13,223 nucleotides of DNA, from positions 1 through 13,223 of the IMG/VR virus record IMGVR_UViG_2529293223_000006; one strand, given 5' to 3'. This DNA is from a virus (Duplodnaviria; Heunggongvirae; Uroviricota; Caudoviricetes). Positions 1 to 6,000 of this stretch are shown here, in pieces (positions within the stretch are counted from its first letter, which is position 1; every line of letters begins with the position of its first letter). The position numbers are program-made.

Positions 1-3000
1 ATTCACCGGCATAGCTGTCCAGTCGCGGCGGGTGAATCCTTCAAGCTGACGGTATTCACTGCCGGTAACGCGCCCTTTTTGTTTCACTACTTCCGGCAGT
101 TTTTTCATGGCATACCGGACAACATCATAGGAAGGCATCACCTCCAGCATGTATGGTTCGTCCGCATGGCGACGCTGCCATTCCGCGACAAAATCCTCGT
201 AGGCTTCTGACATGGGTCTGCCATTCGCCTGGCGATACTGCGCCAGAAATTCAGGCAGCCAGCTAATTTCTTCCGGTTTTATTTCGTCGCGCTTTCCTGG
301 TGCCAGTAACAGCAGTCGTTCTGCGGCATTCTGTGCTTTGTTAAACGCAGCTATCCAACGTTTGAGCGTAATTGCGCTCAGAGTTCGCTCTTTTCCTTTA
401 CGGGCATTAGCAGTAATGACCAAAGATTCCAGGCGTTCTTCCAGGTTACCCTGCGCTAACCTCGCCACAATAAAACGTATCGCGCTGGCACAACTGAATC
501 CCGGCTCCTGGCTAATTCGCAGAACTTCACAGACAAGAGCAATGCGTGCTTCTGCAACTTTACGTTGATTTTCCGTAAGCGCATTCAGACGTTCTTCTAC
601 CAGTTGTGGCGAACCGCGATATGCTTCGACCGCCTGAACGGCATCAGGGTTACGCGCCTTCCTGGTAACAACCTTTACCTCAGAAACGTTGTTCTCTCTA
701 GCCACTAACTGTTCCACGTATCGTTCACGTAGTGCCTGTTGAGTAATTTTCGGCAAGCAATCAATGTGATACTCAATGGCTTTTGTACCTTCACGGCGAC
801 GACTTACGTCACTACGTCCATGAGAAAAACGTTGTAATGCCTGACGGATGCCTTTTGTAGTTACAGGCATTCCAGGTACGCCGAGCAGTTCATTTACGGT
901 AACGTACGGCTGCATATCACGACGCCTTCCTGATAAATCCATCGTTACGATACCGACTGGGCCAGATGGTTTCTGGCGGGACACCTATAGCGTCAGAGAT
1001 AACGCGTTCGTATTTTTTGTTTGGCGTACGAACTACCGCTTTCAGTGAATCCTTCGCATAACCAGCATGGAGTGAAAGCTCCCGAAAGGAAGACCACCCA
1101 TTATCTTTGAGTGCCTGCTGAATCATCAGCGAAGGCCAATCGCGGCCAAGATCTTCTCTTTGTCTCATATTTCCTTTACCCTACAAAATTACCCGCGCGG
1201 ATATTCGCGTGGATATCCGAGTGAACAAAGCATAAGAACCAAAAGAACAAAAATCAAGGTATTTTCATTCTTTTCTTAGCTGTTTTGTTTATTTGTTTGA
1301 ATTCAAATAGATACAAAGAAAGGAACTTTTAATGAACAAAGAACCAAATGGTTCTTTTCCTGATGAGAAAAAAGAACCTTTAATTCAGCGGCTGTTTTCT
1401 CTGGTGGAGCGGTATCCATCTCGATCAGAAGCGGCCAGAGCTTGGGGAATTAACATATCAACCCTGAACAACTACTATAAACGCAGACACTTGAATCCAA
1501 TCCCCAGACCCAATCAGCTACAAAAAATTGCAGATAAAGAAGGTGTATCATTGGAGTGGTTAACAACTGGTCAAGGCCAAAAACCAAGTTTTGATGCGAA
1601 TAGCAGCAAAGAACAAAAGAACAAAAGAGCAAAAGAGCAAAAGGCTATGACTGGTGAGCCCCCATCAACCAAAGGGGCTAACATTGATTCAAGTTTATTA
1701 ACTCTCATTGAGATTTTGTCTGACGATGAAAAAAATGCACTTTTTGAAGTATTAGCAAGAAAAGGCGTAGAAACTTTATTACGCTTGTTAGATAAGGAAA
1801 CACAAGAATTGCTGCAACTGGAGGGCCGTAAACGCCTAGCTGCGTTGATGCTAGTCGATATGCCCGACGAGCAAGTCAGAGAGATTTTGGAAGAGATTGA
1901 AGCTAGTATTCTCTCAGAGAGTGTAAAAGCGAAGGTGGGCTAGTTCAATTAGCCCACAGCAAGTGGCTCTTAAAGACATTTAAAATGCTAAAATTGCAGT
2001 AACACGCAGTATCAAATATTTTTTCGTTTTTAGCTTTCTTTGCGATAGTAGTATCAAATCGCATGTTGTGCGCATAACACTGTTTTACGCCATAACTGTT
2101 TGTTTTATCCCATCAAATCCCGTTTAATCCACTTTTCTCCCGGATTTTTCACCAGTATCAAATAATTTACCTCGTCATAATCCCTGTAAAGCATCAGAAT
2201 GATGTCTGCATCCGCCTCTATTTCTCCGGAATTTTTCAGGTCTGAGTTCATGGGACGTTTATTGGGTCTGGACTCCACACCGCGGGAGAGCTGGCTCAGC
2301 GCAATCAACGGAAAACCACCGGATTTTGCCAGGCCTTTAAGCCCCTTTGAGATTTCACCCACGGCAAGGTCATGACGCCCCGTGGTTCGGGTTTTTATCA
2401 GCCCGAGATAATCAACCACCACCAGCGCCGTTTCCGGATGTTTAATCAGATGGTGTTTCGTTGTTGCGCATATCTCATCAATGGTCAGGTTCGCCTGGTC
2501 CACCATCCAGATATTGCGCCCGGTCATCCGCCCCACCCCTTGTGAGAAACGCGCCCAGTCTTCATCTTCAAAGTGAGCCACAGATTTCAGGCGTGATACT
2601 GGCATCCCTCCAGCCGCAGACACCATACGTTCACCAATCTGGATGTTCGCCATCTCCATGGTGAACAGAAGCACACCATGCCCCTGCTCAGTCACCTTGT
2701 CGATGATGTCCAGCGCAAGTTCGGTTTTCCCCATCGAAGGACGAGCCGCAATAAATACCAGGTCGCCGGGCTCCATGCCGCCTGTTTTTGCGTCCAGTTC
2801 ATCAATACCGGTCATCAACGTCCTGGATTTCTCCAGTCCCTGACTCCGGCATTCAACACGCTCAACCACCTCCGGAAGCACATCATCAATATGTACCGAC
2901 TGAATAACGCCCTTTTCCGTCGACAATGAGGCCATCATGTTCTGTGCATCCTTAAGAGCATCTTCAGCTGCTTCACAGGTATGCGCATCGCGTAATTTCT

Positions 3001-6000
3001 GTAATGTCTCGTTCAGTGTTTTTTCTGCATCACGCAGTGCGGCATTGCGTCGCAGTGCTGCAACATAGTGTTCCAGAGATGACTTCACCCAGGTTTTACG
3101 CCCGGTATCAGTAATCACCGGGGCAAGTTCTGGCATCTCATTGCACAACAGCACAGGATCAATCACGCCGGACACACGGGCCTGTCTGCAGATGCCTGTG
3201 TAGATATCCCGGTACGGTCGTACAGAAAAAACGTCCGCCGGTAGTGTGGCCAGAATATCCATCACTTCAGGATCTGCTCCGCGCAGAAAGAACGCGCCGA
3301 TGACAGCGCCTTCAAGGTCATCGTTACGCCATACTGGAGTTGTCATGCAGCCACACCTCTGATACGAGAACGGTAACTGGGCCAGTTAAACGACAACCAG
3401 TTGCGTCCCCCGTCTGTGATCCTGTCGGCAATTCGGGGACTGATGAACGCCCACAACTCTTCCGGTGAGAGGTTACTGATCAGAATGGTGGGCAAGATAC
3501 TTTCGTACCTGGCGTTGATAATTTCCTGCAAAATAGTCATTTCAGCCGCGCTGCCAAACTGAACGCCAACTTCGTTGAGGTAGCCTGAGTTTAACGGACA
3601 CTCCTTCCTGAAATAGAATGGCATCAGAAGGAGCTAATAATGAGCAGAAAAACCCAACGTTACTCTAAAGAGTTCAAAGCCGAAGCTGTCAGAACGGTTC
3701 TTGAAAATCAACTTTCCAGTGAAGGCGCTTCCCGATTATCCCTTCCTGAAGGCACTTTAGGACAATGGGTTACCGCCGCCAGAAAAGGGCTCGGTACTCC
3801 TGGTTCCCGCACGGTGGCTGAACTGGAATCTCAAATTCTGCAACTGCGTAAGGCGTTAAATGAAGCTCGCCTTGAGCGAGATATATTAAAAAAAGCAACA
3901 GCGTATTTTGCACAGGAGTCGCTGAAAAATACGCGTTAATCGAACAATGGCGACAACAATTTCCCATTGAAGCGATGTGTCAGGTATTTGGTGTATCCAG
4001 GAGCGGTTATTACAACCGGGTACAGCATGAACCCTCAGACAGAAAACAAAGTGATGAGCGGCTAAAACTGGAGATTAAGGTGGCACATATCCGCACTCGC
4101 GAAACATATGGAACCCGGCGGCTCCAGACGGAGCTGGCAGAGAATGGCATCATCGTTGGTCGTGACCGACTGGCACGTCTTCGTAAGGAGCTAAGGCTAC
4201 GCTGTAAGCAGAAACGCAAGTTCAGAGCGACTACGAACCCGAACCACAATCTGCCAGTTGCGCCAAATCTGCTGAACCAGACGTTCGCTCCTACAGCACC
4301 AAATCAGGTCTGGGTGGCGGACCTGACGTATGTTGCCACACAGGAGGGATGGTTGTACCTCGCTGGCATCAAAGATGTTTATACGTGCGAAATTGTCGGC
4401 TACGCCATGGGAGAGCGCATGACAAAAGAGCTGACAGGTAAAGCCCTGTTTATGGCGCTCAGGAGCCAGCGCCCACCTGCCGGGCTAATCCACCACTCTG
4501 ATCGAGGTTCACAGTACTGCGCATACGATTACCGGGTCATACAGGAGCAGTTTGGTCTGAAAACATCAATGTCGCGTAAAGGTAACTGTTACGACAACGC
4601 TCCGATGGAAAGCTTCTGGGGAACGCTGAAAAATGAGAGCCTGAGCCACTATCGTTTTAATAACCGGGATGAAGCCATCTCAGTAATACGGGAATACATT
4701 GAGATTTTCTACAATCGTCAGCGTCGTCACTCTCGTCTGGGGAATATCTCCCCGGCAGCCTTCAGGGAAAAATATCATCAGATGGCTGCTTAAAAAAAGA
4801 ACAAATAGTAGTGTCCGCTATTGCCAGTACACCTCAGAGAGATTGCCGCAATGGGGGCAACCATTGCCGGAATGGGGGTGGAATCAGAAATTGCGGCGAC
4901 GGGGATAAAGAATTTTATGCTGTCGCTGACAGCGGGGAATTCTGCCACCAAATCGCAGAAAAAAGCGCTTCGCCTGTTGCGCATTGACCCGAAAAAACTG
5001 GCGGCGGATATGCAGAAAGACGCCCGTGGGGCCATGCTGCACGTACTGGATTCTCTGGCGAAAGTGCCGAAAGAAAAACAGGCTGCTGTGCTTAATGCGC
5101 TGTTCGGGAAGGAATCTCTGGGAGCCATTGCGCCGCTGCTCACGAATCTGGATTTGTTGCGAACCAACTTTAATCGTGTGGCGGATGCGCAGCAGTATGG
5201 CGGCTCAATGCAGAAAGAATATGCCGCCCGTGCCGCGACGACGGAAAATCAGTTGTTGCTGCTGCAGAACCAGATCAATGCGATTTCTTCCACGCTGGGG
5301 GAAACCTTTTTGCCTTCAATTAATGAAGGCAAAAAAGCGATTGAGCCTTTTCTGGAAGAAGTGCGCACGTTTGTCAGAGAAAATCCTGAGGTCGTAAAAA
5401 CCATCGCGAAAACGGGGCTGGCACTGCTGACATTTGGTGTTGCCATTGGCTCGCTGTCGCGGATGGGAAAAATCCTTAGTGGCGTGATGAATATGACGCC
5501 GGCAAAGGGATTAATAGCGCTTCTCGTCGGTGGTGCATATCTCATAATTGATAACTGGGAAACCGTTGGACCGGTTATTAAAAATGTCTGGGAAGTCATT
5601 GATGGCACCGCCCGGGCTATGGGGGGATGGGAAACGATCCTTAAAGCAATCGCCATTTTTATGGCGACAAAGTGGGTCACCGATGTCACTAAATCAATCA
5701 GCATTGTGACGAAGGATATGCGCACACTCGGCAAGGTCACTGCCGCTACCGGATTGTTTGGTAAAGGCGGGGGCGTTATCGGAAAAGCCGGTGTATATGG
5801 GATGCTGGCTTCTATGATGTGGGAGCCCGTCGAAAATGCACTTGAATCAATTCTGCCTGAGGGCGATGTTAACTGGGCCAGGGATCATGGCATATATCTG
5901 GCCTCTGACTGGACCCCGTTTTTTAATCGAAAAAATTATGAGGAATACCAGGCATCCCTTAATCAGCCGCGTCAGTACAAACCGAATGTTCCTTTGCTTA

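What the first reader, a model, noticed from the sequence alone, without database searches (positions are those of the whole stretch)
2105..3575. Replication module cut at both ends by two different mobile elements
The DnaC-like loader has lost its 5' portion to IS copy 1, and the DnaB-like helicase appears to have lost its 3' end to the Mu-like element. The ATGA-coupled pair is therefore unlikely to be functional, which argues that this lambdoid prophage can no longer replicate and is a fixed remnant.
Basis: inference. Interest (0 to 1): 0.4.

Follow-up and report, generated by a model that had tools for sequence, protein, structure and literature searches.

The report
Phage replication genes truncated by transposons
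Two phage DNA-replication genes in a Shigella boydii prophage remnant are each cut short, one by an IS600 insertion sequence and the other by a Mu-like prophage, which is ordinary prophage decay in Shigella.

Summary
On the minus strand, 3575-3346 holds only the last 76 codons of a DnaC-like helicase loader (full length 252-292 aa). It abuts the left inverted repeat of an IS600 copy (3576-4836). Coupled to it by an ATGA overlap (3343-3346), 3346-2180 holds codons 1-389 of a 463-aa DnaB-family helicase. At 2180/2179 it runs into the left end of a Mu-like prophage, which adds 24 foreign codons and a stop (2179-2105).

The loader has lost its helicase-binding domain, Walker A motif and Walker B aspartate. 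The helicase has lost its last 74 residues, including the arginine-finger region. Neither can be expected to work.

The window comes from Shigella boydii 5216-82. The closest intact relatives are the L18/L19 pair of Stx2e phage phiP27 (93% DNA identity) and prophages of enteroinvasive E. coli (97%).

The module is inverted relative to the tail and ipaH genes across IS600 copy 1. Neither IS600 copy has a target duplication. So the IS600 boundary is a rearrangement junction, not a simple insertion. The prophage has also lost its lysis, head and baseplate genes.

I could not find where the missing gene parts went. This is ordinary and of low interest.

The parts
1..915 (-). 5' part of the Mu-like transposase (A) gene. 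It runs off the window start, which is also the contig end.
   Evidence: Pfam PF02316 Mu DNA-binding domain, 31.9 bits against a cutoff of 23.3. 96% DNA identity to Yersinia Muvirus vB_YpM_5 over 1-639. In sister assembly L006 the gene is 698 aa with the Mu-transpos_C domain.
917..1168 (-). Ner-like early regulator of the Mu-like prophage
   Evidence: Pfam HTH_35, 7.4e-14. It sits between the repressor and the transposase, as in Mu.
1332..1943 (+). Repressor (c-like) gene of the Mu-like prophage, divergent from ner
   Evidence: Weak Pfam Phage_CI_repr hit. The identical 203-aa protein occurs in S. boydii, S. sonnei, S. flexneri and E. coli.
1944..2179 (-). Left terminal region of the Mu-like prophage, with three direct TTTGATACT repeats (2154-2162, 2050-2058, 2008-2016)
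   Evidence: Homology to vB_YpM_5 ends at 2179. Three independent contexts share TAT..GAGGTAAAT and diverge outside it. The repeats are shown.
2105..2179 (-). 24 foreign codons plus a stop, read from Mu-like DNA and fused to the helicase reading frame
   Evidence: The tail YDEVNYLILVKNPGEKWIKRDLMG has no counterpart in the full-length helicases.
2180..3346 (-). Codons 1-389 of a 463-aa DnaB-family replicative helicase (3'-truncated)
3343..3346 (-). ATGA stop/start overlap that couples the loader and helicase genes
   Evidence: Sequence. The same overlap appears in the annotated homologues.
3346..3575 (-). Last 76 codons of a DnaC-like AAA+ helicase loader (5'-truncated)
   Evidence: Alignment to the 252-aa and 292-aa homologues. 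Equivalent to E. coli DnaC residues about 170-245. It has no Pfam hit on its own.
3576..4836 (+). IS600 copy 1 (IS3 family): orfA 3640-3939, orfB 3975-4793. Its left end supplies the spurious ATG (3624) and 16 codons of the 93-aa ORF.
   Evidence: 1261-nt inverted repeat with copy 2. HTH_Tnp_1 and rve domains. 99% identical to elements annotated IS600. No 3-bp target duplication.
4837..6158 (+). Tail tape-measure gene lacking its first ~199 codons (phiP27-type myovirus tail)
   Evidence: Matches phiP27 32222-33579 and L004 3001-4342 on the plus strand. Pfam PhageMin_Tail.
6159..7419 (-). IS600 copy 2, inverted relative to copy 1. It replaces about 6-7 kb of baseplate and tail-fibre genes.
7420..7894 (+). 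Tail-fibre assembly gene lacking about 23 codons at its 5' end
   Evidence: Aligns to L004 from 11277, where the CDS starts at 11207. Pfam Caudo_TAP.
7918..11582 (.). Remaining prophage end: tail-fibre N-terminal-domain gene (7918-9186, +), DUF4376 gene (9382-9759, +) and ipaH effector gene (9939-11582, -)

Best explanation
The region 2180-3575 is a dead fragment of a phage replication operon: a DnaC-type loader gene translationally coupled to a DnaB-type helicase gene, of the kind found in phage phiP27 and in lambdoid prophages of enteroinvasive E. coli. It lies in a heavily decayed ipaH-carrying prophage of Shigella boydii 5216-82.

Shown:
- The loader gene is cut between the codons equivalent to E. 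coli DnaC Asp169 and Glu170. Only its C-terminal third remains, directly against the left end of IS600.
- The helicase gene is cut after the codon equivalent to E. coli DnaB Asp421. It directly abuts a complete-looking left end of a Mu-like transposable prophage.

Inferred:
- Neither product can function. The loader lacks its helicase-binding domain and Walker A. The helicase lacks the arginine-finger hairpin and the C-terminal strands of its RecA fold.
- The Mu-like element arrived by ordinary transposition into the helicase gene.
- The IS600 boundary arose by recombination between IS600 copies. Most likely this was an inversion between one copy in the loader gene and an oppositely oriented copy in the tape-measure gene. 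That would explain why the replication genes now point away from the tail genes.
For: Truncation and junctions:
- Truncation sizes come from alignments to full-length homologues and the partial Pfam DnaB_C match.
- The junctions lie at 2179/2180 and 3575/3576.

Motif mapping:
- E. coli DnaB alignment: residues equivalent to 422-471 are lost, including KQRNG. PMC12661323 places the arginine-finger hairpin at about 447-450 and describes loader contacts in 424-468.
- E. coli DnaC alignment: the cut falls between D169 and E170. PMC8213410 gives the N-terminal helicase-binding domain, Walker A K112 and Walker B E170.

Mu-like identity:
- The gene order is repressor / ner / A. In sister assembly L006 these are followed by B, kil, gam, GemA, Mor and lysozyme.
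- The end matches a Muvirus.
- Three TTTGATACT repeats lie within 170 nt of the end.

Inversion:
- phiP27 matches the window at 11914-13312 on the minus strand, but at 32222-33579 and 39862 onward on the plus strand.
- In E. coli FDAARGOS_943 the same replication module lies 28 kb upstream of ipaHe, in the same orientation, next to btsS. The window also ends next to btsS.
- Neither IS600 copy has matching 3-bp flanks in any pairing.
- IS-driven inversions are very frequent in Shigella (PMC8072062).

The structure is real:
- It is present in two NCBI assemblies, one with a 1.13-Mb contig.
- The helicase-bearing piece, without the IS600 joins, is also present in Logan contigs from six sequencing runs.
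Against: - No experiment shows loss of function.
- The missing halves were not located, so neither "split by insertion" nor the inversion model is demonstrated. That covers loader codons 1-216 and helicase codons 390-463.
- The right end of the Mu-like element lies outside the window and the contig, so the expected 5-bp duplication could not be checked.
- The replication and tail modules could come from two different prophages rather than one.
- The first two bases of the Mu-like end (TA before TG) are unusual for a Mu-type end. The exact cleavage position is uncertain by 2 nt.
Confidence: 0.88

Rival explanations
1. Two different prophage remnants are involved: a lambdoid one carrying the replication module and a phiP27-type one carrying the tail and ipaH genes. 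They lay head to head and were fused by an IS600-mediated deletion, rather than one prophage having been inverted.
For: - In E. coli strains CFSAN029787 and FDAARGOS_944 the replication module and the ipaHe-tail module lie hundreds of kb apart, in separate prophages.
- The module is 97% identical to the enteroinvasive E. coli lambdoid versions but 93% to phiP27. The tape-measure fragment is only about 90% identical to either reference.
- Neither IS600 copy has a target duplication.
Against: - phiP27 itself carries both modules in one genome.
- FDAARGOS_943 has the replication module and ipaHe in one prophage at the same btsS-adjacent site.
- A single inversion between two inverted IS600 copies explains the arrangement with fewer events.
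Confidence: 0.3
2. The juxtapositions are assembly artefacts: contigs were wrongly joined across the repeated IS600 copies.
For: The window comes from a draft assembly whose contig stops inside the Mu-like A gene. IS600 is highly repeated in such genomes.
Against: - The same order (helicase fragment, loader fragment, IS600, tape-measure fragment, IS600, tail-fibre assembly gene) is found at 99.4% identity in an independent assembly with a 1.13-Mb contig.
- The helicase/Mu-like junction is unique sequence, and Logan contigs from six further runs span it.
- Truncation of both genes does not depend on what lies across the IS.
Confidence: 0.03
3. The truncated helicase is still expressed and has a function, for example as a dominant-negative subunit that poisons the helicase of incoming related phages.
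For: - The 389 retained codons have no frameshift or internal stop.
- The N-terminal domain and the Walker A and B motifs are kept.
- A weak promoter-like match lies inside the loader remnant at 3557-3530.
Against: - Promoter-like matches number 3, against 1.8 +/- 1.4 in shuffled sequence, which is no better than chance.
- The operon's own upstream region is gone.
- The exact protein was found only in this narrow lineage.
- An open frame over 1.2 kb is expected after a recent disruption.
Confidence: 0.03

Closest known systems
phiP27 L18 (DnaC-like helicase loader) and L19 (replicative DNA helicase), and the equivalent pair in enteroinvasive E. coli prophages (WP_000988184.1 / WP_046880176.1)
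   Same: - Same gene order and the same 4-nt overlap.
- 93% (phiP27) to 97% (E. coli) DNA identity over all 1399 retained bases.
- In the relatives, Q antiterminator and lysis genes follow downstream.
   Different: The window copy lacks loader codons 1-176 (phiP27) or 1-216 (E. coli) and helicase codons 390-463. It is bounded by IS600 and by a Mu-like prophage.
E. coli DnaB-DnaC helicase-loader system (PDB 6QEL, 6BBM, 7T22)
   Same: The full-length homologues align to DnaB over residues 34-461 (E = 1e-64) and to DnaC over 46-242 (E = 3e-30), with the ATPase motifs conserved.
   Different: These are phage-encoded paralogues. The window fragments lack the DnaB 422-471 equivalent and the DnaC 1-169 equivalent.
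Mu-like transposable phages (Muvirus: Mu, D108, SfMu, Yersinia vB_YpM_5/6)
   Same: - Left-end gene order is repressor / ner / A / B.
- It carries Mu-specific domains and matches vB_YpM_5 at both the end and the A gene.
- A cryptic Mu-like prophage in S. boydii is mentioned in PMC4406740.
   Different: - The ner-repressor region (about 640-1877) has no DNA match to vB_YpM_5. This suggests a different immunity type.
- The terminal bases read TATG... rather than TG...
IS600 (IS3 family) and IS-mediated rearrangement in Shigella
   Same: - 99% identical to annotated IS600.
- It has orfA and orfB with HTH_Tnp_1 and rve domains and TGAGG... terminal repeats.
- Shigella genomes show many IS-associated inversions and pseudogenes (PMC8072062).
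   Different: Neither copy here has the 3-bp target duplication of a fresh insertion.

Membership tests
DnaB-family replicative helicase | N-terminal DnaB domain (PF00772) | tested here: met
   PF00772, 23.9 bits against a cutoff of 23, residues 9-86
DnaB-family replicative helicase | [quoted passage not shown] | tested here: met
   ARPSMGKT and VVVDYLGL align to the E. coli DnaB motifs. DnaB_C E = 1.4e-63.
DnaB-family replicative helicase | Complete C-terminal domain, including the arginine-finger hairpin (KQRNG region) | tested here: not met
   Only profile positions 2-215 of 255 are matched. 74 residues are missing, equivalent to E. coli DnaB 422-471.
DnaC/IstB-type AAA+ helicase loader (PF01695) | Walker A P-loop and Walker B Asp-Glu | tested here: not met
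   The Walker A segment (GSCGTGKN in homologues) is absent. The cut falls between the D and E of IIDEVG.
DnaC/IstB-type AAA+ helicase loader (PF01695) | N-terminal helicase-binding region | tested here: not met
   Residues 1-176 (phiP27) or 1-216 (E. coli) of the homologues have no counterpart in the window.
DnaC/IstB-type AAA+ helicase loader (PF01695) | C-terminal sensor I, arginine-finger and sensor II segment homologous to known loaders | tested here: met
   The 76 retained residues are about 97% identical to the phiP27 and E. coli loaders. They align to E. coli DnaC about 170-242 through the full-length homologue. They have no Pfam hit on their own.
IS600 (IS3 family) | orfA/orfB transposase with HTH and DDE (rve) domains, terminal inverted repeats, about 1.26 kb | tested here: met
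IS600 (IS3 family) | 3-bp target-site duplication flanking a simple insertion | tested here: not met
   Flanks are CGT/GAG for copy 1 and TGG/TGA for copy 2. There is no match, even after allowing an exchange between the copies.
Mu-like transposable prophage (Muvirus) | Left-end order of repressor, ner, transposase A with Mu DNA-binding domain, then B | tested here: met
   in the window. A (698 aa, Mu-transpos_C), B (Phage-MuB_C), Gam, GemA and Mor are seen in sister assembly L006.
Mu-like transposable prophage (Muvirus) | Repeated transposase-binding sites at the end | tested here: inconclusive
   Three exact TTTGATACT repeats lie 17, 121 and 163 nt from the end, and similar repeats occur at the vB_YpM_5 right end. 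Binding was not tested.
Mu-like transposable prophage (Muvirus) | 5-bp target duplication and a matching right end | not testable with these tools
   The right end lies outside the window and the contig. Scans for the predicted right junction found nothing.
Lambdoid / phiP27-like prophage | Replication module followed by Q, lysis, head and tail genes in one orientation | tested here: not met
   Only the replication fragment and tail fragments are present, and they have opposite orientations. The relatives show the canonical order.

The most novel reading that the evidence does not exclude
The open 413-aa chimeric helicase keeps its N-terminal domain and Walker motifs but lacks the arginine finger. 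It might be expressed and kept because it co-assembles with, and poisons, the helicase of superinfecting phiP27-like or Stx-type phages. That would be a defence derived from a prophage remnant.
Probability: 0.02. Interest if true: 0.5.

Novelty: already known. Interest (0 to 1): 0.1.

Why it matters
It matters little beyond correct annotation. Both ORFs should be flagged as pseudogene fragments. The 413-aa product is deposited as "dnaB-like helicase C terminal domain protein", and the 93-aa ORF is an IS600/loader chimera.

The locus is a clean worked example of how Shigella prophages that delivered ipaH effectors are dismantled by IS600 recombination and by insertion of a second, probably intact, Mu-like prophage, while the effector gene stays whole. 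The two junctions are absent from 5,426 complete E. coli genomes, so they could serve as lineage markers for this S. boydii clone.

Tried and rejected
1. Helicase 3' part. A protein search with the missing 74 residues returned 26 short fragments. None starts at the Mu junction. The nearest are unrelated fusions, including a RusA-like fusion in S. sonnei and one joining at IAEIN.

2. Loader 5' part. A search with the missing 216 residues returned full-length proteins and contig-end partials only. None was an IS600-truncated form.

3. Exact look-ups of the 93-aa chimeric ORF and the 443-aa tape-measure ORF returned only the source contig. No state preceding the Mu insertion was found.

4. IMG/VR scans for the predicted right junction and for the exact left junction both found nothing. 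A scan for the Mu-like end alone gave one related prophage at another site. That hit served only to fix the end of the element.

5. Searches of complete E. coli genomes for either junction found none.

6. The promoter scan over 1900-3800 gave results no better than shuffled sequence.

7. Walking along the 1.13-Mb sister contig was not pursued. Its coordinates show that it also stops inside the Mu-like element before the right end.

8. A literature search for the residue number of the E. coli DnaB arginine finger (R442) returned nothing usable. I therefore cite only the hairpin region given in PMC12661323.
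Full report
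**Source and layout**

The window is positions 2-13224 of contig AFGE01000028.1 (assembly GCA_000211975.2). The 413-aa ORF is deposited as EGI97735.1 from Shigella boydii 5216-82. The contig stops inside the Mu-like transposase gene at the window's left edge. To the right of the window lie a DinI gene and then btsS/btsR.

The map in window coordinates is:

| Coordinates | Strand | Feature |
|---|---|---|
| 1-2179 | mixed | Left end of a Mu-like prophage: transposase A fragment 1-915 (-), ner-like 917-1168 (-), repressor-like 1332-1943 (+) |
| 2180-3346 | - | DnaB-family helicase, 3'-truncated |
| 3346-3575 | - | DnaC-like loader, 5'-truncated |
| 3576-4836 | + | IS600 copy 1 |
| 4837-6158 | + | Tape-measure gene fragment |
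| 6159-7419 | - | IS600 copy 2 |
| 7420-7894 | + | Tail-fibre assembly gene fragment |
| 7918-9186 | + | Tail-fibre N-terminal-domain gene |
| 9382-9759 | + | DUF4376 gene |
| 9939-11582 | - | ipaH, 547 aa, intact |
| 11865-12533 | - | SAM-dependent methyltransferase |
| 12975-13223 | - | DinI |

These assignments rest.

**Checking the observation**

The two minus-strand ORFs share ATGA at 3343-3346. The same 4-nt overlap is annotated in phage phiP27 (L18/L19) and in enteroinvasive E. coli CFSAN029787.

The fragment 2180-3578 matches 352 of 5,426 complete E. coli genomes and 24 phage records. Identity is 97.4% to the E. coli strain and 93.2% to phiP27.

For the helicase, the full-length protein is 463 aa in the closest intact relatives. 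Window residues 1-389 align almost perfectly, and homology stops after ...ADADIILMLYRD. The remaining 24 residues and the stop are read from foreign DNA. Pfam agrees, matching only positions 2-215 of the 255-position DnaB_C profile.

For the loader, only the last 76 residues (EVGVQFGS...RGVAA) align to the 252-aa phiP27 or 292-aa E. coli protein. The first 16 codons of the 93-aa ORF, including its ATG at 3624, lie inside IS600.

So the loader has lost 70-74% of its length and the helicase 16%.

**What was lost, in functional terms**

Through the full-length homologue, the helicase cut maps just after E. coli DnaB Asp421. The missing part corresponds to DnaB 422-471 and contains the conserved KQRNG segment. 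PMC12661323 describes ATP hydrolysis at subunit interfaces using an arginine-finger beta-hairpin. It places that hairpin at about residues 447-450, inside the lost region.

The loader cut falls between the residues equivalent to E. coli DnaC Asp169 and Glu170. [quoted passage not shown] The domain, Walker A and the Walker B aspartate are all gone here.

Loss of function is therefore an inference, but a strong one. No credible promoter was found: 3 promoter-like matches against 1.8 +/- 1.4 in shuffled sequence.

**The two boundaries**

*IS600.* The two copies are 1261 nt long, differ at 3 positions, and are 99% identical to elements annotated IS600. The flanks are CGT/GAG for copy 1 and TGG/TGA for copy 2. 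No 3-bp duplication is found in any pairing. The far side of copy 1 is tape-measure DNA, not loader DNA. Both copies therefore mark recombination or deletion junctions rather than simple insertions.

*Mu-like element.* Several lines identify it:
- The window transposase fragment carries the Mu DNA-binding domain.
- In sister assembly GCA_002968245.1 the element continues with a 698-aa A protein, B, kil, Gam, GemA, Mor and lysozyme genes. All appear intact over the 10 kb visible.
- Its A gene (96%) and terminal 300 nt (85%) match the Yersinia Muvirus vB_YpM_5, and the match ends exactly at 2179.
- Three independent contexts share TAT..GAGGTAAAT and diverge immediately outside it, which fixes the end at 2179. 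The contexts are the window, vB_YpM_5 and an IMG/VR prophage.
- Three exact TTTGATACT repeats lie 17, 121 and 163 nt from the end. From my own knowledge of Mu, this spacing resembles its L1-L3 sites. I did not test binding.

**Wider context**

phiP27 matches the window in two blocks of opposite orientation:
- Its replication genes (11914-13312) match on the minus strand.
- Its tape-measure gene (32222-33579) and tail-fibre assembly region (39862 onward) match on the plus strand.

In E. coli FDAARGOS_943 the same replication module lies 28 kb upstream of ipaHe. It has the same orientation there, within one lambdoid prophage next to btsS. The window's prophage end is also next to btsS.

The simplest history is recombination between an IS600 copy in the loader gene and an inverted copy in the tape-measure gene. 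That would invert the roughly 20-kb segment between them. A fusion of two separate prophages by IS600-mediated deletion remains possible. [quoted passage not shown]

Further decay is evident:
- The tape-measure gene lacks about 199 codons.
- About 6-7 kb of DNA-circularization, baseplate and tail-fibre genes are replaced by IS600 copy 2.
- The tail-fibre assembly gene lacks about 23 codons.

The prophage was therefore already non-viable, whatever the state of the replication genes.

**What remains open**

I could not find the missing halves. So "lost" cannot be distinguished from "displaced". The Mu right end and its 5-bp duplication are outside the available sequence.

Neither junction occurs in any complete E. 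coli genome. The exact chimeric helicase occurs in two NCBI assemblies and in Logan contigs from six runs. The arrangement is therefore real and lineage-specific.

**Verdict**

All components belong to well-known families, and the process is the familiar IS- and phage-driven erosion of Shigella prophages. Novelty: already known. Interest: low.

Noticed in passing
window 640-1877: The ner-repressor (immunity) region of the Mu-like prophage has no DNA match to Yersinia Muvirus vB_YpM_5, although the flanking A gene (96%) and terminal 300 nt (85%) do match. This suggests a different immunity type. The identical 203-aa repressor occurs in S. boydii, S. sonnei, S. flexneri and E. coli.
   Followed up: partly
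window 2008-2016, 2050-2058, 2154-2162: Three exact direct TTTGATACT repeats lie within 170 nt of the Mu-like left end, and similar repeats lie near the right end of vB_YpM_5. They are likely transposase-binding sites. The element's first bases read TATG rather than TG.
   Followed up: partly
window 3576-7419: Two inverted IS600 copies, differing at 3 positions, bracket a 1322-nt tape-measure fragment. The arrangement has the form of a composite transposon, but neither copy has a 3-bp target duplication.
   Followed up: yes
window 9939-11582: The ipaH gene is an intact 547-aa ORF with LRR and NEL domains. Its closest E. coli counterparts, annotated ipaHe in FDAARGOS_943 and FDAARGOS_944, are marked frameshifted.
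   Followed up: no
window 9772 onward; L006 1-3575: Sister assembly GCA_002968245.1 matches the window at 99.4% only up to 9772. There, instead of ipaH, the methyltransferase and DinI, come short ORFs and then smpB. This is a further rearrangement or deletion within the same lineage.
   Followed up: partly
window 11844-11874 and 12893-12923: A 31-nt direct repeat (81% identical) brackets the methyltransferase gene and a 61-aa tail-fibre-assembly fragment. It may be a module boundary or chance.
   Followed up: no
window 1283-1320: An AT-rich palindrome centred on TTTGAATTCAAA lies in the ner-repressor intergenic region of the Mu-like prophage. It may be an operator.
   Followed up: no
window 1 (contig end): The source contig ends 1 nt before the window start, inside the Mu-like A gene, and the 1.13-Mb sister contig also ends inside the element. 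This hints that Mu-like sequence is repeated in these genomes.
   Followed up: no
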